Shown here piece after piece: positions 3,283 through 62,281 of a DNA stretch of 64,000 nt; within the stretch, counting starts at the first letter, position 1, and the number at the start of each line of letters is the position of its first letter. Made by a program: the position numbers and the translations under genes. Location of the stretch: assembly GCA_029865125.1 (NCBI GenBank), contig JAOUHN010000002.1, positions 713-64,712 of the forward strand, in the 5' to 3' direction. The stretch comes from Candidatus Moraniibacteriota bacterium. GTDB lineage: Bacteria > Patescibacteriota > Minisyncoccia > Moranbacterales > UBA9337. The notes beneath the pieces were generated by a model that was not told where the DNA came from, made no database searches, and saw only the letters and a program-made list of their open reading frames with translations.

Positions 3283-3303
3283 AAAAAATTTTAAAAATTA
3301 CAT

Positions 3304-3420
3304 TTAAAGTATACCACATAACATGAGACATGTATCATAGAGCGCGTAACATATAGCATAGAGCATGAAACATGTGGCATGGGACATGAAATACGTGATA
3401 TTTAACATAGAACAGTGTAG
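3304..3420. repeat. degenerate 9-bp tandem repeats (CATAGAGCA/CATGAAACA/CATGGGACA family)
   Basis: Visible tandem 9-mers. The same family recurs at 8860-8965, 18351-18595, 19290-19345, 24958-24990, 40358-40395, 41283-41325, 46782-46985 and 48080-48200. Confidence 0.8.
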
Positions 3421-3545
3421 TAAAAAAGTCAAAGGTACATAAGGTCTGTAAAGTCCGTAAAGTCCGTAAAGTCCATTGAGTCCATAAAGTCGAAAGTCTG
3501 TAAAGTCCGTAAAGTCTGTAAAATCCATTGAGTCCATAAAGTCGA
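3421..3545. repeat. tandem GTAAAGTCC / CATTGAGTC 9-bp repeats
   Basis: gtaaagtccgtaaagtccgtaaagtccattgagtccataaagtcgaaagtctgtaaagtccgtaaagtctgtaaaatccattgagtccataaagtcgaaagt. A second array is at 53395-53465. Confidence 0.85.
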
Positions 3546-3808
3546 AAGTGTTTCCAAGCTATTGGGCTATTACGAGGCGGCTATTGACAAAATTGATGAA
3601 ATATGCTAGGATGTACAGTCAAGTTGAAATGAGATTTGAGATGGGAGATTTGAGAATTGAGAATTTTTAAAACTAAATATATTAGGAAAATGTTTGGAGA
3701 GAGACATGAATTTTAAAAAGAAGACAACCGTTAGTCTTTTTGTGTCTCAGTGTCTAAGCATATTGATTACACAAGATTGATAGTTGTTTTTTTATTCTAT
3801 CGTTACTT

Positions 3809-3891
3809 GTCATTCTGAACTTGATTCAGAATCCCGAAATAATATCACGCGCGTTAGTCGTGGGGGATCCTGAAACAAGTTTAGGATGACA
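3809..3891. mobile_element. palindromic MITE-like element, family A (GTCATYCTGAAC...GTTCAGRATGAC)
   Basis: gtcattctgaacttgattcagaatcccg...ggatcctgaaacaagtttaggatgaca. Each arm is itself a hairpin. Homologous copies are at 13745-13827, 20106-20190, 42880-43290, 55632-55723 and 62199-62281. Confidence 0.8.
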
Positions 3892-4807
3892 TGGTGTATA
3901 AGTTGGGAAGAAGAATTGTGAAAAAGATAAAGATGAAGAAATTAATTCAGGGCATATATATGAAAACAGGCCTCACGAATCAATTTTCAGAAAAAGAATC
4001 GATTTCACAATTCTCTTTCTCAGAAATTAGAGTTGAGATTTGAGAGGTGAGAGTTGAGAAATAATGAAAAGATTTTTGGGAACAATCCTTGTGGTTGAAC
4101 CCAAAAATCTCTTGGTTATTTTGACTAAAGAGAAAAAATGTTCTTTTAGACCCAATCGTTTTTTTGTTGAGTTGATAGAGGCGGGCATAATTTGAAAATA
4201 GCATTTGGATTTTTTAGTCTTGCCAGGCTGAAAATAAAAAATGATGATTTTTTAATTATGGCTCTTTAAGATTTTTTTTCGGGAAAAAGGAGAATGCTTT
4301 GAAAAAAGCAAGAGAACCTCCCAGAGGTGGGACTCAAAACAAAGGCGTAGTAGCCCGGCAGTTATTTTCACCCGTAAGGATTCTGTCGTGATACTTTTCA
4401 ATGAGATTTGGCAGTTTCAAAGAAAGTAAAAGGATGCAGGGGGTTTGTGGTTACCTCCAAACAAAAAGCACAAGTTTTTCTGATTTAGATTTATTGAGGA
4501 GGCATGGCCCTCAATGAATAGAATTTTTCAGAAAACTAACTCAATGAGCCTTAGGTCAAGGCCAAAAAAATGATCCCATGAAAATAAAAAAGTGTGTTTT
4601 TCGCACAAGCACTTACATTACTAATTCGGATTATTGTGCGACAATGAATAATCCGAATATAATTTTCAAATGATTACGAAGATTTGCTCAATAAATTATT
4701 TTTGCTCAAATCCTCCTGATCATTTGTTTTATGATTAGGTGTAATTTGACAATTAGGTATTGGATTTAACATTAATTTTTCACGGAGATTTTTCAAGGAG
4801 GCTCTGA

Positions 4808-5296
4808 ATGTGGAAACTAGGTTCTGATGAATTAGTCAGTAATCGACATCACAGTCATCTTCATGATGATGTGGCTGAAATTTTGACTGAGGCGTTGTCT
4901 AGAATTGATTCTGGGAAACGAGATTTTTTCGTGGAACAGGTGGATTTTGGTAGAGTTGTTGGAGAAACGATTTGTGTTGCCACTGATAATGGTGATGAAA
5001 TTGTTTTTGCAAAACGGCCGAAGCGATATGGGCATACTCGATTTGTGAAAACCAAAAGGCCTGAGCCGTGCTCAAGTCTTGTGGTTATTCTCAAGAAAAT
5101 CGAGACTGGATATGTTCTCATATCGGCGTTTGTTGGCGTTAAGCCACAGCCGGAACCTTGGGATCACAGAAGTTTTTCCCAGCAATCTGATCCGCAAAAG
5201 GCGGAAAGACTGGCGATAGAATTTTGGAACTCGCATGCTCTTGTTTGGGGCTGCGATGTGATTTCAGGGACAGAGACAACTCGATGCCCTTGGTAA
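4808..5296 (+). CDS. hypothetical protein, first gene of GC-rich MoxR-vWA operon
   Basis: 162-aa ORF, AGGAGG RBS 8 nt upstream (4794-4799), GC content clearly above surrounding genes; no recognisable family. Confidence 0.5.
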   Translation: MWKLGSDELVSNRHHSHLHDDVAEILTEALSRIDSGKRDFFVEQVDFGRVVGETICVATDNGDEIVFAKRPKRYGHTRFVKTKRPEPCSSLVVILKKIETGYVLISAFVGVKPQPEPWDHRSFSQQSDPQKAERLAIEFWNSHALVWGCDVISGTETTRCPW

Positions 5297-5473
5297 AATT
5301 CGAGAATTAAGCGACTTACTTCGCGTGTTTTGACAAAATTCAGAACATAGGCGAGTAAGCGTCTATGATTTCTAGGTGATTCCCCACCAGCAAGAGCGGG
5401 AGAAGTGCAAGGTCTGAAATTGTCAACAATCGGCAGTGAAAGAGCGCTAAAACTTATCTGATGGAGAAAGATC

Positions 5474-6553
5474 ATGACTAATATCGCACAAAAAATCCAA
5501 AAAAGCCTGGTAGAATCTTTTGTTTTCACTAATGAAATCGCAAGGATACTCTCCTTGGGATTTGTTGGAAAAAGAAACATTATCGTTTTTGGGCCTGGCG
5601 GACATGGAAAGTCTGCAATGGTACAAAAGGTCATCGAAGACCTCGGTATGGCCGAGGAAACCTTTTTTCAATTCTTTGGCGAAGGCATGGACGAGTCCCG
5701 TCTTTTTGGCGGACTCAACTTCAAAAAGTTAGAAGAGGAAAAAGTTTTGGAATACTATCCCGAGAAATCTTTTCTGAATTCTCGGGTGGCCGTGTTTGAG
5801 GAGCTCTTTGATGCTCCTGCATCAGTTTTACTAGCTCTTAAGGACGTGTTGACTGCCAAAGAGCTTAGGAATGGATCGCAGCGATTCAAAATGAAAACCG
5901 AGGTTATTATTTGTCTTACCAACAAAGAGCCGAGCGAAATTTCGGACCTTGGTCCGGCAACTCATGCATTGATTGAGCGGTTTCCGCTTCAGCTCAATTT
6001 GAAGTGGAAGGACTATTCAGCTAAGAGTTATCTTCAGATGTTTGAGAAGGTAGCACATCAGTTTGACGGACCGGTTCTCAACGGATTCAAAGCTGTCTTG
6101 GCTGAAATTTTGGCCAAGGCTACCGAGGAAGGAAATTTTGTTTCTCCGCGGACAGCCGTGCACGCTTTTCAAGTGTGCCAAACGGCAGCGCAAATTCGTG
6201 GAGCAACCCAGGTTGAAAAGCAGGATCTCACTGATCTTCGTTTTTTGCCTGGACTTGAGGGCCTTGCTGAGACTATTCAGAAGGACCTCAATGTTGCCAT
6301 GGAGCGAGCCGAAGCGGAGGCTAAACTGGTTGAGGCAGAAGAAAAACTTCGGCGGTTAACCGGAGAACTTCGTGAAGCTAGTGCGCCGATTAAGGCGCTT
6401 CAGGTTGCCAAGAAATTGATGGCTTTTCAAGATGAGACTGCCAAGTTAAAAGTGACCGATGGTCTCAAGGATCGTCGCAAGGCGATTCGCGACTCGGTCG
6501 GTGAAAAAATCGCTGAGGCTCAAGCAAGAGCTTTGGAAAATACCCGCATTTAA
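5474..6553 (+). CDS. MoxR-like AAA+ ATPase with C-terminal coiled coil
   Basis: Walker A GPGGHGKS. MoxR/AAA_5-like core (VAVFEELFDAPASVLLALKDVLTAKELRNG...VIICLTNKEP...ATHALIERFPLQL, sensor LIERF ~ LDRF). C-terminal heptad-like AEAEAKLVEAEEKLRRLTGELRE. Confidence 0.7.
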   Translation: MTNIAQKIQKSLVESFVFTNEIARILSLGFVGKRNIIVFGPGGHGKSAMVQKVIEDLGMAEETFFQFFGEGMDESRLFGGLNFKKLEEEKVLEYYPEKSFLNSRVAVFEELFDAPASVLLALKDVLTAKELRNGSQRFKMKTEVIICLTNKEPSEISDLGPATHALIERFPLQLNLKWKDYSAKSYLQMFEKVAHQFDGPVLNGFKAVLAEILAKATEEGNFVSPRTAVHAFQVCQTAAQIRGATQVEKQDLTDLRFLPGLEGLAETIQKDLNVAMERAEAEAKLVEAEEKLRRLTGELREASAPIKALQVAKKLMAFQDETAKLKVTDGLKDRRKAIRDSVGEKIAEAQARALENTRI

Positions 6554-6563
6554 GGAGGGGCAG

Positions 6564-7919
6564 ATGACACAATTTACATTTCGGACATCTTCCTCGCCGA
6601 CATACATCTCGCCTAGTGCGGATGAAATGCGGGAGATGGGAGAGAAGCTGGGTCTCAAGAAATTTTCAAGAGATCTCGTAGCTGATCTTTGCAATCTGGC
6701 TTCTGGGGGAGTGGTAAATCCTCCTTCCACGTATCGCAATGAAGTACAGCGTAAAGTGGAGGACAAGCTTCCCGCTCCTAATGACAAGGGGCAGTGGAAG
6801 AGCAAGGCCGGGAAATGGACAGCGGATCGACAGATGATGATTGTCGAAGGCACGGAAAAAGCCATGAGATATCATCAAAATGTTTGTGATTTTTTGCAAG
6901 CAGTCGAGTTGGATAAATTTCCCGGAAATTCACCACTTGAAAAAGCAATGAACCTTCTTAAGCTCCTGTCGAAGAAAAACGGAGCTGCAGGAGGCGACGA
7001 AGGAGAAGAGCCTCTTCCAATCTTCACGGACAATGATCAATCGGAAGAGATTGGGGAGAGTTTGAATCAACTTATGGACGACATTGATTCGTTGTCTAGT
7101 GATGAGAAACAGCTGCTTGATCCTGAAGAGTCTGACTCTGAGGGCGAAAGTAAAGGTGACGGAGACGATAATCTTCGAAAAATGAAGCTTGCCGAAGATT
7201 TTTTGAGAGGCAAGGAAATGATGCTTGAGATCTCGAGAAATCTGGACAGGCTCACGCGGATGCAGGTTCGAAAGAGCAAGAAGCAAGAGCCGGATCCAGC
7301 GGGAGACAGTGTCAGAAATCGTCCAATGAAGCATTTGGACGAGATGCATCGGATGGTAAAGCCTGAGTGGGCGTTGCCTAGTGCTTATCGTACCTATCGA
7401 ATGGTGACAAAGGCTGCCCAGGTTCGCGAACGTGTCACGACCATTGAGAAAAAGCAGTTATTGTATGTTATTATTGACTGCTCAGGATCAATGGGTCAAG
7501 GGAAGCGGATTTTCAAGGCTGGTGGAATTCTCATGAATCGCCTTAAGGCGGTGATTGAGGGTGAAGCTGAGCTATATGTTCGGCTTTTTGATACAAATCT
7601 TAAAGACGAGCATCATGCTTCGTCTTCTAGTGAGGCAAAGGAGTTGATTCGCCATTTTACAGAAAAGAATTATTCTGGCGGTTCAACGGATATCTCAGCT
7701 TGCGTTCGAGCAGCGCAAGAGCGTATCAATGAAATTGTTGCGCAAGGATCAACTTATCGTCCCGAATTAGTCATCATCACAGATGGCGATGATAAGATAA
7801 ATTTGACTTTGCATGAGCTCAAAGGGACAAAGGCTCATGCGTTTGTGGTCGAATGTGCAAATAAGGCGCTAACTGATCTCGCTATTTCTACAGGCGGGGT
7901 TGGAATAAATAAAATGTAG
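6564..7919 (+). CDS. von Willebrand factor A (vWA) domain protein with long acidic N-terminal region
   Basis: Start reassigned to ATG 6564 behind AAGGAGGGG RBS (the ORF-track start at 6459 overlaps the MoxR gene). MIDAS motif DCSGSM ... GGSTD ... ITDGDD. Acidic linker DDIDSLSSDEKQLLDPEESDSEGESKGDGDD. Confidence 0.8.
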   Translation: MTQFTFRTSSSPTYISPSADEMREMGEKLGLKKFSRDLVADLCNLASGGVVNPPSTYRNEVQRKVEDKLPAPNDKGQWKSKAGKWTADRQMMIVEGTEKAMRYHQNVCDFLQAVELDKFPGNSPLEKAMNLLKLLSKKNGAAGGDEGEEPLPIFTDNDQSEEIGESLNQLMDDIDSLSSDEKQLLDPEESDSEGESKGDGDDNLRKMKLAEDFLRGKEMMLEISRNLDRLTRMQVRKSKKQEPDPAGDSVRNRPMKHLDEMHRMVKPEWALPSAYRTYRMVTKAAQVRERVTTIEKKQLLYVIIDCSGSMGQGKRIFKAGGILMNRLKAVIEGEAELYVRLFDTNLKDEHHASSSSEAKELIRHFTEKNYSGGSTDISACVRAAQERINEIVAQGSTYRPELVIITDGDDKINLTLHELKGTKAHAFVVECANKALTDLAISTGGVGINKM

Positions 7920-8599
7920 AATTGGAGGTGGACATGGTGCGAATAAGAGATTCTCCTTAGCTAGTAATCCAATGCTAGAGAGAGGTAGTAGCTCAATCAC
8001 AAGAAAAACTACCCGGCGGTATGCTTCCGATTTTTCTTTAGAGAAGTCGCCGTCGTTAACTTTCAAGAATTCGAATAGTTTTTGAAAGAAATTAGGGAGC
8101 AAGGGGGTTAATGAAAAGGAGCGAAACCTCTAAACAAAAAGAGCGTAAATATTGATAATGAAATGGCTGTGGAGGTATGACCCACGAAATCAATCTTATC
8201 AATATCCTTTCATAATTCTTTAGCTGAGTAGAACACAAAAAATCAGCATCATAACCTGAACAAGTTTTAGAATATTTGACTTGCTCTTGCATGCCTTTTA
8301 AAAAGGACAAGATTTGTTAGAATTTATTCTCATAAATCGGTAAGATCCATCTGCTAAACGGGAAAAGCCATGCAGGTGATAAATATTCCGAATCGTTTCA
8401 TTCTTTAGGTTGAGGGAGTTTGAAACATATGATTTCTGTGGCTTCAATCTGTGAACAGGCGCAGTAAACCCTCTTAACGCGCAATCAGCTGATTGTGTAT
8501 CGTTAATTCTACAAGGAGGTTCAGATATAATTTATCTGTTCCTCCTTAACTTAATATTAGTATTGATATAAATCGTTTTGGATTTGCAGGGTAAGCTAA

Positions 8600-8760
8600 G
8601 AGCCTGTTTAAAGTCTCCGTATTCTACTGCGAATCTGAGATTTTGGCTGCAAAATACCTAAATTTCGTTGAATTACTTTCCAAGTAGTCCTGTCTCAATT
8701 TATGTATTTTTCGCCTAAAATCTCAAATTCTCGCTACGAAAAGAGATTTTAAACAGGCTC
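8600..8760. mobile_element. MITE-like element family B (~160 bp, TIR GAGCCTGTTTAAA)
   Basis: gagcctgtttaaagtctccgtattctactgcgaatctgag...gagattttaaacaggctc. Near-identical copies at 28322-28481 and 32558-32718. Confidence 0.8.
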
Positions 8761-9289
8761 CGAGGTATTTCGTGAGTTTCATTTTTGGAGCTCAACTCTC
8801 TCCTTGAAATACTTTCTAGCCTACTTTGCAAATCTAAGACGGTTTGCAATATGTAGCATAGAACATAGAACATATAGCATAGAACATATAACATGGAGCA
8901 TAGAGCATGGAACTTAGAACATGGGACATATGACATAGAACACATAACATACAGCACATAATATACAGCATGGAGAATAATACAGGTGAATTTCGGTTCA
9001 GCTGTTTTTTTGTGTATGAATTAGAGTTGAGATGGTAGATCTGAGATAGAGAAACCCCTCCTCAGTCCTCCCCTTTAAAAAGAGGAGGAGGAAGTGAGAA
9101 TAATTTAAGATGTGATATGAGAAATATAAACCCCCTTTCCGCCAATTGGCGGACTCCCTTTGATGGAAAGGGGAGGAAGGAGGTGTTTTGTAATAGTTTG
9201 ATTTGATGATATAATATCACTATAGGAGATGCGAGAGGAGAGATAGGGATTTGAGAAATAATTTTAGAAAACTTAAAAATTAAAAACAT

Positions 9290-9664
9290 ATGAAAAATAA
9301 AAAATTAGTATTGTTTCAAAAAAAAGAAATTAGAAGAGTTTGGCATGAAGAGGAGTGGTGGTTTGTGGTTATTGATGTTGTGGGTGCTTTGACCGATTCA
9401 GTTAATCCGGCGGGATACCTTAAGGATATGAAGCGTAGAGATGATGAAATTTCCAAAGGGTGGGGGCAAATTGCCACCCCCCTTGCAGTTGAGACAGCTG
9501 GAGGAAAACAAAAAATTAACTGTTCTAATGTGGAAGGAGTTTTCAGGATAATCCAATCCATCCCATCACCCAAAGCGGAGCCCTTCAAGCGTTGGTTGGC
9601 GAAAGTTGGGAAAGAAAGGATGGATGAGATTGAGAATCCGGAATTAGTATTTAGTGTAAGCTAG
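9290..9664 (+). CDS. BRO-N domain protein (DinD-like), apparently C-terminally truncated
   Basis: EIRRVWHEEEWWFVVIDVVGALTDS...VEGVFRIIQSIPSPKAEPFKRWLAKVGKERMDEIENPEL matches the BRO-N / DNA-damage-inducible-protein-D family. The protein is only 124 aa and is followed by a 32-bp tandem duplication (9652-9715). Confidence 0.7.
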   Translation: MKNKKLVLFQKKEIRRVWHEEEWWFVVIDVVGALTDSVNPAGYLKDMKRRDDEISKGWGQIATPLAVETAGGKQKINCSNVEGVFRIIQSIPSPKAEPFKRWLAKVGKERMDEIENPELVFSVS

Positions 9665-9727
9665 AGTTGACACTAAATGGGTATTTAGTGTAAGCTAGAG
9701 TTATCACTAAATTAAAATCTTAAGAAA

Positions 9728-11179: not shown

Positions 11180-12754
11180 ATGAATAAATTAGATTTGAGA
11201 AAGAGATTTGAGAAAATAATTGAATATCTTTTTTATGTGGCTGTTTTTCTGCTTCCTTGGCAGACGGTTTTTTTGGTGCGTGAAATTTTTGTGGGGGGTG
11301 AGAAGTGGCAATATGGGACTGTTGGGGTGTATTTGAGTGATGTTGTTTTGGTTTTGTTGTTGGGTCTGGTTGTAGTGGGAAAATTGAATGTTGAGACAAA
11401 TTTTCAATTTTCAATTTTTCACCCTATGGGCGATCACCCGAAGGGTGACAATTTAAAATCAATTTTTAATGATGAATTTAAAAACAAGCAAAAACATGTC
11501 ACGGCGAACTTGTTTCAAAATCCCAAGCGAATATTGAGCGCGTGGTTTGATAAGGGGATCCTGAATCAAGTTCAGGATGACAAAGTGAGATGGTTTGCGG
11601 GACTATTTTTGTTTTGGATTGCGCTGTCAATTTTTTGGTCGCCGGACAAATTTTTGGCGACATATTTTTTCTTCAAAATTCTTTTAGGGGTGGGATTGTT
11701 TTTTGCAATTGGGCGCATCAAATTTGATTGGAAAAAATTAATCTTTGTTTTGTTTGTGAGTGCTGTTTTTCAAGCTGGACTGGGAGTGCAGCAATATTTG
11801 ACTCAGGAGGTTTTTCCAAACAAATGGCTGGGAATAAGTGAGCATCAAGCATTTGAGGGGGGCGCAAGTGTTGTTGAGAATTCAAATGAAAGATGGCTTC
11901 GGGCGTATGGTGGATTTGAACACCCGAATGTTTTGGGAGGATTTTTGGTTTTGATAATTTTGGTGATTATTGGGGTAAATTTTCAATTTAAAATTTTTCA
12001 CCCTATGGGCGATCACCCGAAGGGTGACAATTTAAAATCAATTTTTAATGATAGAATTTTAAAAAGAAAAAAATATTTTACACTTGGATTGCTGGTTGTG
12101 AGTTGTTGGCTGCTGATGACTGGTTTGTTTTTTTCTTTTTCAAGAACTGCTTGGTTGGCTTTGATTGTTGGTTTAATCATCTTGACTGTGCTGAAATATA
12201 AGGGGATCCTGAATCCCGCTCCAGGCGAGGCGAGGCAAGTTCAGAATGACAAAGTGAAGTGGTTGATGATTATTTTGATTCCTATAATTTCAATTTTAGT
12301 GATGAATTGGAGTAATTTTTTCACTCGTTTTGATGCTGGTGCGAGGCTGGAACAGAAATCTGTGAGTGACAGGGTGAGTTATTTTTTTGAGGCGAAAGAG
12401 GTGATTGAAAATAATTTGTTTCTTGGAGCGGGGACAGGAAATTACGTCCAGGAAGTGATGAAAAATGATGAACTCAAAAAAGATGTGTGGGAATATCAGC
12501 CCGTTCATAATGTTTTCTTGTTGATTTTTTCTGAGCTGGGGCTCATCGGACTTGTGTTATTTGTTGGGTTATTGATTTTGATAATGCGCAGATGTGGACT
12601 AGAATCACTTCCAATATTTGCAGCGCTGTTGATTTTCATGATGCTTGATCATTGGCTTTGGACCAGTCATTTCGGAATGCTATTTTTCTGGCTAATTTTA
12701 GGACTCACTTGTTGCAAAAAGTCCTCTGGTGTAAGATTGAAAAGAGGTTTTTGA
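11180..12754 (+). CDS. O-antigen ligase (Wzy_C)-like polytopic membrane protein carrying three in-frame repeat-element insertions
   Basis: Multi-TM protein with SRTAWLALIVG and PVHNVFLLIFSELGLIGL (O-antigen ligase-like HN..L..E.G motif). The ORF stays open through two copies of the caccctatgggcgatcacccgaagggtgaca element (11400-11470, 11985-12055) and two family-A MITE arms (11555-11582, 12203-12251). Confidence 0.55.
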   Translation: MNKLDLRKRFEKIIEYLFYVAVFLLPWQTVFLVREIFVGGEKWQYGTVGVYLSDVVLVLLLGLVVVGKLNVETNFQFSIFHPMGDHPKGDNLKSIFNDEFKNKQKHVTANLFQNPKRILSAWFDKGILNQVQDDKVRWFAGLFLFWIALSIFWSPDKFLATYFFFKILLGVGLFFAIGRIKFDWKKLIFVLFVSAVFQAGLGVQQYLTQEVFPNKWLGISEHQAFEGGASVVENSNERWLRAYGGFEHPNVLGGFLVLIILVIIGVNFQFKIFHPMGDHPKGDNLKSIFNDRILKRKKYFTLGLLVVSCWLLMTGLFFSFSRTAWLALIVGLIILTVLKYKGILNPAPGEARQVQNDKVKWLMIILIPIISILVMNWSNFFTRFDAGARLEQKSVSDRVSYFFEAKEVIENNLFLGAGTGNYVQEVMKNDELKKDVWEYQPVHNVFLLIFSELGLIGLVLFVGLLILIMRRCGLESLPIFAALLIFMMLDHWLWTSHFGMLFFWLILGLTCCKKSSGVRLKRGF

Positions 12755-13735: not shown

Positions 13736-13744
13736 ATTTCTCGT

Positions 13745-13827
13745 GTCATTCTGAACTTGATTCAGAATCCCGAGATGATACCGCGCGTGTTATTTGATGA
13801 GGATCCTGAATCAAGTTCAGGATGACA
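13745..13827. mobile_element. MITE family A copy
   Basis: gtcattctgaacttgattcagaatcccgag...ggatcctgaatcaagttcaggatgaca. Confidence 0.8.
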
Positions 13828-18350: not shown

Positions 18351-18595
18351 AACATGGAACACATAGCATATAACATAGAGCATGGAACACATAGCATGGA
18401 ACACATAGCATAGAACACATAGCATAGAACACATAGCATAGAACACATAGCATAGAACACATAGCATAGAACACATAGCATAGAACACACAGCATATAAC
18501 ATAGAGCATGGAACACATAGCATATAACATGAAACACATAGCATAGAACACATAGCATAGAACACATAGCATGAGACAGATAGCATAAAAAATAT
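18351..18595. repeat. ~17 tandem copies of 14-bp unit ACATAGCATAGAAC
   Basis: Directly visible. The all-Cys/Tyr/Met minus-strand ORFs here are translation artefacts. Confidence 0.9.
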
Positions 18596-20061: not shown

Positions 20062-20105
20062 ACGTGCGTAGGAATATTAAATTTAATTAATTCTCACGTA
20101 AGCAT

Positions 20106-20190
20106 GTCATTCTGAACTTGATTCAGAATCCCGAGATAATGTTGAGTGCGCGCGGATATAGGGGGATCCTGAAACAAGTTCAGGATGACA
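20106..20190. mobile_element. MITE family A copy between regulator and efflux genes
   Basis: gtcattctgaacttgattcagaatcccgag...gggggatcctgaaacaagttcaggatgaca. Confidence 0.8.
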
Positions 20191-27289: not shown

Positions 27290-28360
27290 ATGTTAGAAAA
27301 GTCTACACAATTTATTCAAAATAATTCTCCGGACGGAGGGTTTTTGCAGTCGGATGAATGGAAAGATTTCCAGGAGAGTACTGGAAAAAAATCTTTTCAT
27401 GTCTCTTTGGATTGCTTTTGGGCGAATGCTTTTTTACATGAGCTTCCTTTGGTTGGGAAATATCTATATGTTCCGAGAGGACCTGTTTTGAATGTTTCTT
27501 TCGGGTCATGTTGTGAGTGCGGTCAAAAAGGAATTTTGGAGCTTTTGAGAATTGCCAAAAAAGAAAATTGTGGTTGGATTCGAATAGACATTGCAAGTGA
27601 AAAAGAATTGAGATTTTTGAAAAAAATCAAAGGTTTGAAAATCAAAAAAGCTCCGCATGATGTGCAGCCAAAACAGATTTTTGTGATTGACATTGATGGG
27701 AGTGAAGAGGAGATTTTGTCTGAAATGAAGCCAAAAACGAGATACAATATTCGTTTGGCACAGAAAAAAGGAGTTGAAATTGAAAGCGTGGACCGCAACT
27801 CGGATAAGTTGGAGGAATTTTTGAGTGAATTTTTGAGACTGACTGATGTGATGGCTAAGAGAAGTGGAATTACAACTCACTCAAAGGAATATTACAAAAA
27901 AATGTTGAAAAATATTTCAGAAAACAATCTGAGATTGTACACAGGAAAATTTGAAGGAAAAATTATTTCAGCAGCGCTTATTTCTTTTTATGGGAACACC
28001 GCGACATATCTTCATGGAGGGAGTGATGATGAGGCAAGAAATGTGATGGCGCCATTTCTTCTTCACTGGCAAGCCATTTTGGATGCAAAAGAAAAAGGTT
28101 ACAAAAGATATGATTTTGGAGGAGTGAAAACTTCAGTTGATGAAAGCGGAAAGGTGAAAATACAGAAGTCACCCTGGGAAGGAATTTCCAGATTTAAACT
28201 TGGTTTTTCAAAAAACAAAAAACCCTTGAATTTTTCAGGGAGTTATGATATAGTGGTCGGAAGTCATAAATATGGCTTGTATAGGTTCCTCCAGAGAACG
28301 AAGGAACTTTTTGTTTTCCTGGAGCTTGTTCAAAATCTCCGTATTCTACTGCGAAAATAA
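27290..28360 (+). CDS. FemAB-family peptidoglycan interpeptide-bridge aminoacyltransferase
   Basis: KYLYVPRGPV ... ISFYGNTATYLHGGS FemABX-like motifs. Start set to ATG 27290 (the ORF-track start is a TTG inside a repeat). The last ~13 codons and the stop lie inside MITE-B copy 28322-28481. Confidence 0.7.
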   Translation: MLEKSTQFIQNNSPDGGFLQSDEWKDFQESTGKKSFHVSLDCFWANAFLHELPLVGKYLYVPRGPVLNVSFGSCCECGQKGILELLRIAKKENCGWIRIDIASEKELRFLKKIKGLKIKKAPHDVQPKQIFVIDIDGSEEEILSEMKPKTRYNIRLAQKKGVEIESVDRNSDKLEEFLSEFLRLTDVMAKRSGITTHSKEYYKKMLKNISENNLRLYTGKFEGKIISAALISFYGNTATYLHGGSDDEARNVMAPFLLHWQAILDAKEKGYKRYDFGGVKTSVDESGKVKIQKSPWEGISRFKLGFSKNKKPLNFSGSYDIVVGSHKYGLYRFLQRTKELFVFLELVQNLRILLRK

Positions 28361-28481
28361 AATTTCGGCTGCAAAATACATAAAGTTCGTTGGATTATCT
28401 CTAATAGTCCTGCCTCAATTTCTGTATTTTTCGCCAGAAATTTTAATTTCTCGTTACGAAAGAGAGATTATGAACAAGCTC
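28322..28481. mobile_element. MITE family B copy
   Basis: gagcttgttcaaaatctccgtattctactgcgaaaataaa...gagagattatgaacaagctc. Confidence 0.8.
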
Positions 28482-32511: not shown

Positions 32512-32557
32512 CTCTAGTGGGCACAGAAAAGATATTCAAAGAATGATTGCTTGCTTA

Positions 32558-32718
32558 GAACCTGTTTAAAATCTCCATATTCTACTGCAAATCTGATATT
32601 TTGACTGCAAAATACATAAATTTAGCTAGATTATTTTCAATAATTCTTGCCTTAATTCTTGTATTTTTCGCTCAAAATATCAATTTTTTGCTACGAAAGA
32701 GAGATTCTAAGCAGGCTC
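32558..32718. mobile_element. MITE family B copy
   Basis: gaacctgtttaaaatctccatattctactgcaaatctgat...gagattctaagcaggctc. Confidence 0.8.
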
Positions 32719-42769: not shown

Positions 42770-42879
42770 ACTTGAATTCTTACAGTTTTTGATCGTTGAA
42801 TTATACATGTTGTGCGATGAAGATTTAAAGTATGCAATTTGGTGAACAAAAAATGGCAATTGAAGCTCATATAAAACAT

Positions 42880-43290
42880 GTCATCCTGAACTTGTTTCAG
42901 GATCCCAAAGAATAAGCACCTGCTTAATTTAGAAGATAAAGCCATATATGAAACAGTATTGTGTTTATATAATAACTAACAATAATAACACTTCTTTATA
43001 TATTGGAGTAACAGGTAATTTGCAAAAAAGAATCTGGGAACACAAGGACAAGGTAGTAGAGGGTTTTACTAAAAAATACAACTGTGAAAAATTAGTATAT
43101 TTTGAACAAACAGAAAATGTTCACAGTGCACTCAACAGAGAAAAGCAATTAAAAAATTGGCACAGGCAATGGAAAATAAATCTGATTTCTAAGAGTAATC
43201 CAGAGTGGAAAGATTTATTTGATGAATTATGATGTATTAAATTTAACATGTGCTAGTTGCAGGGGATCCTGAAACAAGTTCAGGATGACA
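42880..43290. mobile_element. family-A palindromic element whose two arms flank a GIY-YIG nuclease gene (candidate autonomous copy)
   Basis: Left arm gtcatcctgaacttgtttcaggatccc at 42880; right arm ggggatcctgaaacaagttcaggatgaca ending at 43290. The 285-bp ORF lies between the arms, whereas other copies have only a 20-40-bp spacer. Confidence 0.65.
42948..43232 (+). CDS. GIY-YIG nuclease family protein (COG2827-like, 94 aa)
   Basis: CVYIITNNNNTSLYIGVTGNLQKRIWEH ... KLVYFE ... EKQLKNW = GIY-YIG motif with conserved R and E. Confidence 0.75.
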   Translation: MKQYCVYIITNNNNTSLYIGVTGNLQKRIWEHKDKVVEGFTKKYNCEKLVYFEQTENVHSALNREKQLKNWHRQWKINLISKSNPEWKDLFDEL

Positions 43291-46780: not shown

Positions 46781-46781
46781 T

Positions 46782-46985
46782 AGCACATAACATAGAACAC
46801 ATAGCACATAGCATAGAACATATAGCACATAACATAGAACATATAGCACATAGCATAAAACATATAGTGCAGAACAAAAAATCCGGATTTATCCGGATTT
46901 TTTGTTCCATGTTCCATGTTCCATGTTCCATGTTCCATGTTCCATGTTCCATGTTCCATGTTCCATGTTCCATGTTCCATGTTTT
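46782..46985. repeat. inverted pair of short-period repeat arrays flanking a terminator hairpin
   Basis: CATAGAACA-type units 46782-46870, hairpin aaatccggatttatccggattt-ttttg (46875-46904), then 9x ATGTTCCATG in opposite orientation 46905-46985. Confidence 0.85.
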
Positions 46986-47847
46986 ACATTCCAAGCATTG
47001 AGAAGATGATCATGAGAATGATGATGTTTGTTGTTGAGATGTGGTGGAGTCGGTTGGGGTTGATGGAAGATATGATGTTGATGTGAACCACAATTGCAAG
47101 GGAAATGAGAGTGAGAATGACAATGATATTTCTCAAGACGTCACTTTGCTTGTTGATTTTTGCTGAAAGAACAAAGCTATTTTTTTGTTCCTTTTTTGAA
47201 TATGCGCTGGGTTCAAGTTTCAAATCAGATGAAGAAATTTTTGAATCTGGAGTGGTGTTTTTCAATGCCATTAAAGTGCTTCCTCCGACTGCAGAAGAGG
47301 ATGAAGCAATTGATGAATATTTTTGACTCAGAGTTTGATTTTTTGGTTGAGCAAAAAGTTGAACTGAAATGATGACTTGTTTGTTTTTGATTTCCCCTTC
47401 CAAGACAGCGACGCCGGTTTCTTGATAATTTGGGTCAAGAATATTTTCTCTGTGAGTAGGGCTATTCATCCAAGCGGTGTGTTGCGAAAGAGGATCTTTG
47501 TAGTTTATTGCCAAATTTTCTCCAGCATATCGATATTCATATTCACTTGAACGAAACCAATACCATGGTGTTTTTCCTGCTGGAGAAGTGTGTGAGAAAT
47601 AGTTGTTGCTGATCATGTCGTAGGCCTTTTTTTGTGCTGCCTCTTTTAATTTTTCATTTTCAGTTAGTGGTGCGAGTTCTTTTTCCATTCTTGATTGATT
47701 GGTGAGTCGAACTATTTCTTGTGGAGTTATTTGCGCAGCCCAAGCGCAGGAGGCGACAAAAGACATCAATACTATTGAAGTGAAAATTGAAATATTAAAT
47801 TGTTTGTTTGTGATTTTCATTTTTGAAATATAAAAAAAGCGCTTCAC
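46984..47847 (-). CDS. CAP (SCP/PR1-like, YkwD-type) domain protein, membrane-anchored
   Basis: NYFSHTSPAGKTPWYW ... GENLAINY ... HTAWMNSPTHRENIL; C-terminal TM; the true start may be the internal MKITNKQF. Confidence 0.65.
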   Translation of the reverse strand: MKRFFYISKMKITNKQFNISIFTSIVLMSFVASCAWAAQITPQEIVRLTNQSRMEKELAPLTENEKLKEAAQKKAYDMISNNYFSHTSPAGKTPWYWFRSSEYEYRYAGENLAINYKDPLSQHTAWMNSPTHRENILDPNYQETGVAVLEGEIKNKQVIISVQLFAQPKNQTLSQKYSSIASSSSAVGGSTLMALKNTTPDSKISSSDLKLEPSAYSKKEQKNSFVLSAKINKQSDVLRNIIVILTLISLAIVVHINIISSINPNRLHHISTTNIIILMIIFSMLGM

Positions 47848-47929
47848 CCATGAAACACCCTTATATTTGCGAACCTCCTTATTTGTCTATAACATCATTA
47901 TAGCGCATTTTAAGGGAAAAGTCAAATCC

Positions 47930-48200
47930 ACATAACACATAACACATAACACATAACACATAACACATAACACATAACACATAACACATAACACATAACA
48001 CATAACACATAACACATAACACATAACACATAACACATAACACATAACACATTAAGCACTAGTCGGTGAGTTTTGATTTATGTTTTCCATGTTCCATGAT
48101 ATGTGTTTTATGTTCTATGCTCCATGATATGTGTTTCATGCTCCATGTTCCATGATATGTGTTTTATGTTCTATGTTCCATGTTCCATGATATTATTGTA
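47930..48200. repeat. ~18x CATAACA 7-bp tandem array followed by opposite-orientation CATGGAACA-type units
   Basis: cataacacataacacataaca... then atgttccatgatatgtgtt... Confidence 0.9.
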
Positions 48201-62147: not shown

Positions 62148-62198
62148 ATGTATGTGGATTTTAAAATATAATTTTTTTCAAAAAATCTGCGCAAACAT

Positions 62199-62281
62199 GT
62201 CATCCTGAACTTGTTTCAGGATCCCTGAGTATAAGCACTCGTAGTGTTATTTTGAGATTCTGAAACAAGTTCAGAATGACA
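62199..62281. mobile_element. MITE family A copy
   Basis: gtcatcctgaacttgtttcaggatccctgagtataagcac...ttctgaaacaagttcagaatgaca; the spacer resembles the 5' flank of the GIY-YIG copy (gaataagcac). Confidence 0.8.

What the first reader, a model, noticed from the sequence alone, without database searches (positions are those of the whole stretch)
4808..7919. GC-rich three-gene operon: unknown protein + MoxR-like AAA+ ATPase + vWA (MIDAS) protein, a candidate horizontally acquired NTP-dependent conflict module
Three co-directional genes have consensus RBSs (AGGAGG at 4794, GGAGAAAG before 5474, AAGGAGGGG before 6564). Their base composition is far GC-richer (GC by eye) than every other gene in the window.

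The locus is bracketed by ~1.3 kb ORF-free, repeat-filled DNA on each side (3546-4807 with a MITE; 7920-9289). Immediately downstream lie a truncated BRO-N/DinD-like gene and a DUF4143 ATPase, both typical of mobile islands.

Sequence-level evidence:
- ATPase: Walker A GPGGHGKS, a MoxR-type core, and a C-terminal coiled coil.
- Partner protein: complete MIDAS (DCSGSM ... T ... ITDGDD) behind a ~300-aa N-terminal region that contains a poly-acidic Ser-rich stretch.
- The 162-aa first gene has no recognisable family.

From established knowledge, MoxR-vWA pairs with a third variable partner are described as ternary conflict/defence systems (vWA-MoxR-VMAP). This exact trio in a Patescibacteria-like background does not match anything I recognise, and the small first protein could be the effector or sensor.
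Basis: partly seen in the sequence, partly recalled or inferred. Interest (0 to 1): 0.72.

Follow-up and report, generated by a model that had tools for sequence, protein, structure and literature searches.

The report
Mobile MoxR–vWA cassette with RNA partner
A GC-rich, horizontally spread four-part cassette in tiny "candidate phyla radiation" bacteria: a small enzyme-like protein of unknown function, an ATP-driven motor, its adaptor protein, and a previously undescribed structured RNA. It resembles known chaperone and defence modules but fits none of them.

Summary
Three co-directional, ribosome-binding-site-preceded genes lie at 4808-7919: a 162-aa protein (g1), a MoxR-class AAA+ ATPase and a vWA/MIDAS protein. 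They form the only GC-high block of the region.

The trio is a conserved neighbourhood in dozens of Patescibacteria. It is GC- and GC3-richer than its flanks in every locus examined, so horizontal spread is well supported. It is not a vWA-MoxR-VMAP system, nor any of the four Kaur et al. ternary classes.

- **First gene.** It is not family-less: it is a divergent DUF3228-like protein. About 1,300 clusters exist, including copies in jumbo phages and in a defence island.
- **Dependency.** g1 often occurs alone, whereas this MoxR-vWA pair almost always has g1 nearby. g1 therefore looks like the client or effector, and MoxR-vWA like its ATP-driven accessory.
- **New part.** A structured, covarying, pseudoknotted RNA that is absent from Rfam follows the vWA gene in at least 13 loci. 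The window holds a diverged copy at 7994-8263.
- **Related loci only.** They also carry a covarying 5' hairpin motif and type III hammerhead ribozymes.
- **Flanks.** The flanking "repeat-filled DNA" is ordinary host repeat material.

The function is untested. The most likely role is a mobile conflict-type module, possibly acting on RNA.

The parts
4808..5296 (+). g1: a 162-aa DUF3228-like small protein, the predicted client or effector of the module
   Evidence: - Family size: 38 close homologues and 1,312 clusters at E<=1e-3; phrog_23674 at 3e-26.
- AF2 model has pLDDT 94.6.
- Invariant residues include R13, H17, C56, D63, R70, R73, R78, E116, W118 and D119.
5474..6553 (+). MoxR-class AAA+ ATPase with a C-terminal coiled-coil-like tail
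   Evidence: - PF20030 bpMoxR at 64 bits (cut-off 27) and AAA_5.
- The closest solved relative is RavA, E 1e-4.
- Walker A, Walker B, sensor 1, Arg finger and sensor 2 are conserved.
6564..7919 (+). vWA/MIDAS protein: helical N-terminal region, acidic disordered linker, C-terminal vWA domain
   Evidence: - VWA_CoxE, VWA_2 and VWA matches.
- MIDAS residues are invariant.
- The start is 10 nt after the moxR stop, and its RBS overlaps that stop.
7994..8263 (+). Probable diverged copy of a conserved structured RNA that follows the vWA gene in related loci
   Evidence: - Covariance model R1 gives a full-length match: 16.6 bits, E 0.006 in 1.16 Mb and 4.5e-5 in 8.5 kb. Position and strand match the other loci.
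- It keeps the GUGG-AGGUAUGAC-CCAC hairpin and the AAAAUC..CAUCAU motif.
- Fold z-score is -2.68.
- Family-level covariation: 92% of cells paired and 41 of 64 pairs compensatory.
- No Rfam match.
4456..4522 (+). Possible partial second copy of the RNA core hairpin (UUGAGG-AGGCAUGGC-CCUCAA) upstream of g1; uncertain
   Evidence: R1 local match to model positions 95-164: 11.1 bits, E 0.0028 in 8.5 kb.

Best explanation
**What it is.** This is a horizontally mobile cassette that circulates among Patescibacteria. It has four parts:
- a small DUF3228-like protein (g1);
- a catalytically competent MoxR AAA+ ATPase;
- a CoxE-like vWA/MIDAS adaptor, translationally coupled to the ATPase;
- a structured RNA immediately 3' of the vWA gene.

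**What is shown.**
- The gene neighbourhood is conserved.
- The composition is foreign to the host in every locus.
- The ATPase and MIDAS motifs are intact.
- The RNA structure is supported by covariation.

**What is inferred.** g1 is widespread on its own, whereas this MoxR-vWA clade is almost never seen without g1. By analogy with other MoxR/vWA pairs (CbbQ/O, NorQ/D, CoxD/E), g1 would be the client or effector. The vWA MIDAS site would grip g1 or its complex, and the MoxR hexamer would use ATP to remodel or activate it.

**Likely role.** A conflict-type function (defence or addiction), probably acting on RNA. The reasons are:
- g1 has conserved Arg, His, Asp and Glu residues and a weak BECR/RelE-like fold resemblance.
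- g1 homologues sit in jumbo phages next to tRNA genes and in a restriction/GmrSD island.
- The cassette carries its own structured RNA, which could act as scaffold, sensor or antidote.
For: - **Neighbourhood.** In a g1-anchored genome sample, MoxR and vWA were adjacent in 22 of 80 loci, in two gene orders. In a vWA-anchored metagenome sample, MoxR was always directly upstream, and g1 or DUF3228 was present in 18 of 20 loci with full flanks.
- **Composition.** The trio exceeds its flanks in GC in all 25 distinct loci with enough flanking DNA. The boundaries are sharp. GC3 is higher in 30 of 30 loci, by up to +0.52.
- **Identity across lineages.** MoxR is 74-77% identical between Moranbacteria, CPR2 and other CPR lineages.
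- **Different insertion context.** The window lacks the TrmB + large-protein context seen in most other loci.
- **Active motifs**.
- **g1 fold and conserved polar residues**. g1 stands alone in the Myxococcales HsdR/GmrSD/MTase island and in jumbo and T4-like phages near tRNA genes.
- **DUF3228 paralogues** sit beside the same MoxR-vWA pair.
- **RNA**.
- **Neighbours** match PADLOC candidate families PDC-S13 and PDC-S01.
- **Possible GC-rich source.** A 63%-GC IMG/VR contig carries moxR-vwa-g1.
Against: - No PADLOC model matches g1, MoxR or vWA convincingly. No experimental defence phenotype is known.
- No recombinase or other mobility gene accompanies the cassette, so the transfer vehicle is unknown.
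- The fusions hinting at RNA repair (AAA_18, Csx3, tRNA-ligase CPD) are below Pfam thresholds.
- The RNA was detected in only about half of the g1-moxR-vwa loci and in none of the moxR-vwa-g1 loci. The window copy scores weakly, and the independent 5'-domain model R3 did not recover it.
- The persistent GC offset could partly reflect amino-acid composition (GC1 is also high).
Confidence: 0.45

Rival explanations
1. The cassette is an RNA-centred ribonucleoprotein or RNA-repair/processing module, analogous to Ro60 (TROVE + vWA) with Y RNA. The vWA protein and MoxR would remodel an RNP built on the 3' structured RNA. g1 would process or heal RNA ends. The role would be RNA quality control or repair rather than killing.
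For: - A covarying, pseudoknotted RNA is tied to the vWA gene.
- A covarying 5' hairpin precedes g1 in 29 or more loci.
- Type III hammerheads lie on the same strand in related loci.
- g1 resembles BECR RNase folds.
- Rare g1 fusions carry kinase-like, Csx3-like or 2H-phosphoesterase-like segments.
- Phage g1 copies sit beside tRNA genes.
Against: - There is no TROVE domain, RtcB, ligase or kinase in the window or in typical loci.
- The fusion hits are sub-threshold.
- The RNA could simply be a 3' UTR or regulatory element.
- The RNA is not detected in many loci.
Confidence: 0.2
2. The genes form a dedicated chaperone/maturation system of CoxD/CoxE, NorQ/NorD or CbbQ/CbbO type for a CPR metabolic or structural client. 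The cassette would be essentially housekeeping, and its GC offset would come from protein composition.
For: - The best vWA Pfam match is VWA_CoxE, and many homologues carry PF05762.
- The MoxR motifs are canonical.
- It is widespread in CPR, often in a recurring position next to TrmB and a large protein.
- Its GC tracks host GC with a constant positive offset in many loci.
Against: - No known client enzyme (CO dehydrogenase, NOR, Rubisco, chelatase) is nearby.
- GC3 differences reach +0.52, which amino-acid composition cannot explain.
- Distribution is patchy: many g1/TrmB loci lack the pair.
- The window copy sits in a different genomic context.
- The surroundings are variable and rich in TA or defence genes.
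Confidence: 0.15
3. The genes are phage-derived morphogenesis or takeover genes left in the chromosome: a MoxR-vWA virion-assembly chaperone, as in Acidianus two-tailed virus or group 2.2 jumbo phages.
For: - Relatives of the pair at 25-54% identity lie on IMG/VR contigs of 44-151 kb, one of which carries g1 as well.
- g1 occurs in jumbo phages.
- Published MoxR-vWA roles in virion assembly (PMC7824862).
Against: - There are no phage structural, integrase or terminase genes around the trio in the window or in about 100 related loci.
- The viral status of the IMG/VR contigs was not verified.
- There is no match to MoxR or vWA in 50,697 GenBank phage records.
Confidence: 0.1

Closest known systems
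MoxR-vWA-centric ternary conflict systems (Kaur, Burroughs, Iyer & Aravind 2020; PMC7159879), especially the beta-propeller class whose ATPase defines Pfam PF20030 (bpMoxR)
   Same: - A MoxR ATPase and a vWA/MIDAS protein form an adjacent core with a third conserved partner.
- The ATPase scores 64 bits on PF20030.
- The genomic surroundings are variable and conflict-like.
   Different: - The third partner is a 162-aa DUF3228-like protein, not VMAP, iSTAND, FtsH or a TPR/beta-propeller protein.
- The vWA domain is C-terminal, with no beta-propeller or effector domain after it.
- The hosts are unicellular, reduced-genome Patescibacteria rather than multicellular bacteria.
- An associated structured RNA is present.
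CoxD/CoxE, NorQ/NorD, CbbQ/CbbO and RavA/ViaA chaperone pairs
   Same: - A MoxR AAA+ ATPase plus a vWA adaptor with its N-terminal region ahead of a C-terminal vWA domain.
- The dependency pattern matches: the accessory pair is found only with its client.
   Different: - None of the known clients is present.
- The vWA score is just below the Pfam cut-off, and no NCBIfam equivalog is reached.
- Composition is foreign and distribution is patchy.
DUF3228 (PF11539; structures 2pd0 and 4fbd from apicomplexans)
   Same: - Both share the C-terminal motifs PEPxD...FW..HA.
- True DUF3228 genes sit beside the same MoxR-vWA pair in L003 and L007.
   Different: - There is no Pfam-level sequence match.
- hhalign finds only short motif matches.
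- The function of DUF3228 is itself unknown.
Ro60 (TROVE + vWA) with Y RNA (the Rsr/Yrl RNA-repair operon)
   Same: A vWA/MIDAS protein is encoded next to a dedicated structured non-coding RNA.
   Different: - There is no TROVE domain and no RtcB/RtcA.
- The RNA has no Rfam match to Y RNA.
- A MoxR ATPase and g1 are present instead.

This is an analogy only, recalled from general knowledge.

Membership tests
vWA-MoxR-VMAP ternary system (Kaur et al. 2020) | A third conserved protein (VMAP) with a VMAP-C domain and N-terminal effector or EAD domains | tested here: not met
   The only conserved third gene is the 162-aa g1, which has no Pfam match. No large VMAP-like ORF occurs in the window or in related loci. 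The definition was read in PMC7159879.
vWA-MoxR-VMAP ternary system (Kaur et al. 2020) | A vWA component with variable C-terminal effector domains | tested here: not met
   The vWA domain occupies residues ~285-451 and ends the protein.
beta-propeller-containing MoxR-vWA system (Kaur et al. 2020; Pfam bpMoxR) | The MoxR ATPase belongs to the bpMoxR family | tested here: met
   PF20030 at 64 bits against a cut-off of 27, covering residues 7-176. Homologues are precomputed as PF20030.
beta-propeller-containing MoxR-vWA system (Kaur et al. 2020; Pfam bpMoxR) | [quoted passage not shown] | tested here: not met
   There is no sequence after the vWA domain. g1 is a 162-aa alpha/beta protein.
MoxR AAA+ ATPases (active) | Walker A, Walker B, sensor 1, Arg finger and sensor 2 are all present | tested here: met
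   GPxGHxKS, AVFEE, TN, ERF and SPR are at least 90% conserved among 57 homologues.
vWA/MIDAS proteins | The DxSxS...T...D metal-ion-dependent adhesion site on a vWA fold | tested here: met
   [not shown]
CoxD/CoxE-type maturation system | The vWA protein passes the VWA_CoxE model, and the pair sits in a cox (CO dehydrogenase) gene cluster | tested here: not met
   VWA_CoxE scores 26.2 bits against a cut-off of 26.4. No cox genes lie nearby.
DUF3228 (PF11539) | Match to the Pfam model | tested here: not met
   [not shown]
Known anti-phage defence systems (PADLOC-DB v2) | Significant match of the core proteins to a system model | tested here: not met
   g1 has no match. MoxR gives only mad8 at E 8e-4, and vWA only PDC-M20A at E 2e-3.
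Rfam RNA families (for the 3' RNA) | A score at or above a family's gathering threshold | tested here: not met
   There are no hits other than tRNAs at gathering thresholds. Only chance-level hits appear in E-value mode.

The most novel reading that the evidence does not exclude
The cassette would be a new class of mobile ribonucleoprotein conflict system. A previously undescribed, pseudoknotted RNA of about 250 nt or more would be the specific partner (sensor, scaffold or antidote) of a DUF3228-like RNA-targeting enzyme. A dedicated MoxR-vWA motor would gate that enzyme's activity. This would give the first function for DUF3228, a family shared with apicomplexan parasites. It would also be the first MoxR-vWA system built around an RNA, and it spreads across the candidate phyla radiation without any recognisable mobility gene.
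Probability: 0.15. Interest if true: 0.85.

Novelty: new variant of a known kind. Interest (0 to 1): 0.62.

Why it matters
- **A new kind of third partner.** MoxR-vWA pairs are known as chaperones and, computationally, as switches of conflict systems. The third partner and the RNA found here are not part of any described class.
- **A handle on DUF3228.** The cassette gives a testable route into the DUF3228 superfamily, which has solved structures, no function, and members in eukaryotic parasites and jumbo phages.
- **New RNA motifs.** It adds a large and a small structured RNA motif, plus a hammerhead subfamily, to the sparse catalogue of non-coding RNAs in Patescibacteria.
- **Evidence of gene flow.** The universal GC and GC3 excess of the cassette over its hosts is unusually clear evidence for ongoing gene flow among these reduced-genome bacteria. 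The vehicle is unknown.

Tried and rejected
- **VMAP, iSTAND, FtsH and beta-propeller membership.** Rejected, because the defining third components and vWA architectures are absent.
- **Flanking repeats as island ends.** Rejected.
  - The heptamer arrays, the TAAAGTCCG arrays and the GAGATTTGAGA motifs occur throughout the window.
  - The 85-bp palindrome at 3808-3891 has at least 6 copies in the window, and the 160-bp palindrome at 8600-8760 has 3.
  - No flanking direct repeats specific to the trio were found.
- **Pseudogene remnants in 3283-4807 and 7920-9289.** tblastx against all fetched loci found nothing convincing.
- **Promoter and terminator scans.** Not above shuffled expectation.
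- **GenBank phages and PLSDB plasmids.** No MoxR or vWA relatives. Only g1 is found in phages.
- **BFVD fold search for g1.** Uninformative. The afdb50 library was unavailable.
- **Sequence-profile search of g1 against the PDB.** Only spurious hits, apart from a weak C-terminal match to 4fbd.
- **Literature.** No paper mentions DUF3228 or bpMoxR, or hammerheads in Patescibacteria.
- **Large protein and TrmB.** The large protein next to TrmB in other loci has no informative domains. Neither it nor TrmB is present in the window.
- **A fuller RNA model.** It could not be calibrated. The 5'-domain model R3 captured only one helix and did not recover the window copy. A filters-off run failed once.
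Full report
**1. Check of the observation**

The window comes from a Candidatus Moranbacteria MAG: the exact g1 and vWA proteins are recorded as OEV93_00355 and OEV93_00365.

Three co-directional ORFs lie at 4808-5296, 5474-6553 and 6564-7919. All three RBS claims are correct. The vWA RBS overlaps the moxR stop codon, which implies translational coupling.

Composition:
- The trio has 44-46% GC. The 45 other ORFs average 37.4 +/- 2.8%.
- GC3 is 0.45 for MoxR and vWA against a mean of 0.34. g1 reaches only 0.36, and three unrelated genes reach similar GC3.
- A 200-nt profile puts the GC-high block at about 4800-8000.

Domain assignments hold:
- PF20030 (bpMoxR) and AAA_5 for the ATPase.
- VWA_CoxE, VWA_2 and VWA for the third protein.
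- Bro-N (N-terminal part only) and AAA_14/DUF4143 downstream. The latter two match PADLOC candidate families PDC-S13 and PDC-S01.

The genes around the region are ordinary housekeeping genes: PolA, CNNM/CBS, Wzy_C and Fpg.

**2. The flanks are host DNA, not island ends**

The heptamer arrays, the TAAAGTCCG array and the GAGATTTGAGA-type motifs recur all over the window. A 160-bp palindrome at 8600-8760 has three copies. These are properties of the host genome. Only the coding trio carries foreign composition.

**3. The first gene has a family and a fold**

- g1 matches phrog_23674 at 3e-26.
- It has homologues in jumbo phages (GAP32, CBB, BF and others) and in Pseudomonas phages Milchi and Astolliot. 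There it stands alone among tRNA and nucleotide-metabolism genes.
- A profile search of 1.84 billion representatives finds 1,312 clusters.
- The alignment shows invariant R13, H17, C56, D63, R70, R73, R78, E116, W118 and D119.
- The AF2 model is confident, with pLDDT 94.6.
- A DUF3228 protein from a related locus hits 2pd0 and 4fbd at E 1e-43, so 2pd0 is a DUF3228 member.
- Profile comparison shows shared C-terminal motifs, PEPxD...FW..HA.

Bona fide DUF3228 genes and extra g1 paralogues sit next to the same MoxR-vWA pair in other loci. g1 is therefore a divergent DUF3228-like protein. It is coding, and it looks like an enzyme.

**4. The trio is a conserved neighbourhood with an asymmetric dependency**

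*g1-anchored genome sample (80 species-level loci, mostly Patescibacteria).*
- 22 loci have MoxR and vWA adjacent, ordered g1-moxR-vwa or moxR-vwa-g1.
- Many others have g1 without the pair.
- More distant g1 copies are solitary.
- One Myxococcales copy lies between HsdR, GmrSD, a HATPase protein and a methyltransferase.

*vWA-anchored metagenome sample.*
- MoxR is always directly upstream of vWA.
- g1 or DUF3228 is present in 18 of the 20 loci with adequate flanks.

So g1 can exist without MoxR-vWA, but this MoxR-vWA clade rarely exists without g1. That is the pattern of client-specific MoxR/vWA accessory pairs. This is an inference from established knowledge of CbbQ/O, NorQ/D and CoxD/E.

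**5. Horizontal spread**

- In all 25 distinct related loci that retain enough flanking DNA to compare, the trio is GC-richer than its flanks by 5 to 27 points.
- The boundaries are sharp: they run from the g1 start to a few hundred nucleotides beyond the vWA stop.
- GC3 of MoxR+vWA exceeds that of flanking ORFs in 30 of 30 loci. The median difference is +0.19, and the maximum is 0.79 against 0.27.
- The window copy (+0.11) is among the most ameliorated.
- MoxR identity of 74-77% links Moranbacteria, CPR2 and other lineages.
- In most loci the cassette lies downstream of a conserved pair: a large unknown protein and a convergent TrmB-family gene. The window has neither, so its copy sits in a different genomic context.
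- No recombinase accompanies the cassette.
- IMG/VR lists relatives on large predicted-viral contigs. One is a 63%-GC, 99-kb contig carrying moxR-vwa-g1. I could not verify viral hallmark genes there.
- GenBank phages and PLSDB plasmids have no MoxR or vWA relatives.

**6. A fourth, non-coding part**

*Discovery.*
- Downstream of the vWA gene, L017 and L024 share 86% nucleotide identity over about 400 nt, with equal similarity in all reading frames and no ORF.
- A three-sequence consensus fold already showed 12 compensatory pairs.

*Distribution.*
- Covariance model R1 finds the element on the + strand, 200-300 nt after the vWA stop, in L021 and in at least nine further metagenome loci.
- It also matches the window at 7994-8263: 16.6 bits, E 0.006 over 1.16 Mb and 4.5e-5 locally.

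*Covariation.*
- On 13 sequences, 92% of cells pair, against 72% when shuffled and 34-50% when slid.
- 41 of 64 pairs show changes on both sides. The caveat is that the alignment was fitted to the model.
- Inspection of the 5' domain shows a further covarying loop-to-downstream pairing, that is, a pseudoknot.

*The window copy.*
- It keeps analogous helices and the GUGG-AGGUAUGAC-CCAC hairpin.
- Its fold z-score is -2.68.
- It is AT-rich and diverged. The independent 5'-domain model R3 did not recover it.
- I therefore call it probable, not certain.
- A partial hairpin copy may lie at 4456-4522.

*Limits.* Rfam 15 has no match. The closest relatives of the window keep only the core hairpin, or carry a different conserved hairpin. 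The RNA was not detected in loci with the moxR-vwa-g1 order.

**7. Other structured elements in related loci (absent from the window)**

- A ~65-nt hairpin motif (AAGGAGAUCGGCUGG...UAACC...CCAGAAAUCUCCUU) lies once, on the + strand, between TrmB and g1. It is found in 29 or more loci, including loci without MoxR-vWA. 94.5% of cells pair, and 17 of 19 pairs are compensatory.
- Nine type III hammerheads with complete catalytic cores and covarying stems lie on the same strand in these regions. Rfam Hammerhead_3 gives only 21 bits.

**8. Comparison with known systems**

Kaur et al. (PMC7159879) define four MoxR-vWA ternary classes by their third component (VMAP, iSTAND, FtsH) or by a beta-propeller fused after the vWA domain.
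- The ATPase here belongs to the bpMoxR family, but every other defining feature fails.
- CoxD/CoxE-like pairs are the closest by vWA architecture, but no known client is present and the Pfam score is borderline.
- No NCBIfam equivalog is reached.
- PADLOC has no convincing match for the three core proteins.

The cassette is therefore a new variant of the MoxR-vWA theme. It has a DUF3228-like third partner and an associated RNA.

**9. Verdict**

- **Confirmed:** the observation.
- **Supported:** horizontal acquisition and the ternary character.
- **Not supported:** VMAP-type membership, and the 'mobile-island' reading of the flanks.
- **Most likely mechanism (about 0.45):** a mobile module in which MoxR-vWA uses ATP to remodel or activate the DUF3228-like protein g1, probably in a conflict role and possibly on RNA.
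- **Rivals:** an RNP or RNA-repair module (0.2), a dedicated housekeeping-type chaperone (0.15), and phage-derived morphogenesis genes (0.1).
- **Function:** untested.

Noticed in passing
L017 11760-11812 and 13796-13844; L019 1153-1222; L023 15594-15646; L034 11696-11744; L046 6613-6667; L048 6503-6555; L049 6591-6639; L062 4268-4320 (none in the window): Nine type III hammerhead ribozyme candidates lie on the same strand as g1. All have full catalytic cores (CUGAUGA...GAAA), a short stem I hairpin with a (A/G)UGUGU-like loop, and covarying stems. They score below Rfam's Hammerhead_3 threshold (21 bits against 48.5).
   Followed up: partly
For example L017 7647-7707, L024 2867-2930, L008 6759-6823, L006 7958-8022 (29 or more loci; not in the window): A ~65-nt covarying hairpin motif (AAGGAGAUCGGCUGG...UAACC...CCAGAAAUCUCCUU) occurs once per locus between the TrmB-family gene and g1, even where MoxR-vWA is absent. 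94.5% of cells pair and 17 of 19 pairs are compensatory. There is no Rfam match. It may be a leader or regulatory RNA of g1.
   Followed up: partly
L003, L006, L007, L008 and many of L009-L163: A conserved pair is the usual upstream neighbour of g1 and the trio in Patescibacteria: a 790-1300-aa protein without informative domains and a convergent, slightly overlapping TrmB-family gene. The stretch beyond it is gene-variable (AbiEii, RHH, STIV_B116-like, DUF3228), like an integration hotspot. The window lacks this pair.
   Followed up: partly
window 3808-3891; also 11507-11583, 13744-13827, 20087-20190, 42870-42906, 43254-43290, 62196-62281: An ~85-bp palindromic dispersed repeat (REP/MITE-like, core GTCATTCTGAACTTGATTCAGAATCC) has at least 6 copies in the window. 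28-nt matches to its core also occur in other CPR genomes (L003, L018, L020, L091, L142).
   Followed up: partly
window 8600-8760, 28322-28481, 32553-32718: A second dispersed palindromic element of ~160 bp has three copies in the window.
   Followed up: no
window 18353-18587, 46781-48189, 8857-8951, 3328-3380 and others: Long heptamer-period microsatellite arrays (CATAGAA, CACATAA, TGTTCCA) fill many intergenic regions of this genome. Some are 100% perfect over 12-18 copies.
   Followed up: no
window 9642-9709: Two tandem 34-nt repeats (AATTAGTATTTAGTGTAAGCTAGAGTTGACACTA) lie exactly at the junction between the truncated BRO-N ORF and the DUF4143/AAA_14 gene. They may mark the event that truncated BRO-N.
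   Followed up: no
L090, L092, L006, L020, L030 (about 150-250 nt after the vWA stop): The window's closer relatives carry a different conserved, covarying hairpin downstream of vWA (CCCACA-AUACnnnnnnGGUGAUAAG-GUGUGGG). It may be a divergent form of the same 3' RNA.
   Followed up: no
L003 9881-10462 against PDB 2pd0 and 4fbd: The DUF3228 protein of a Parcubacteria MAG matches the apicomplexan DUF3228 structures at E 1e-43, which is strikingly close for such distant organisms.
   Followed up: no
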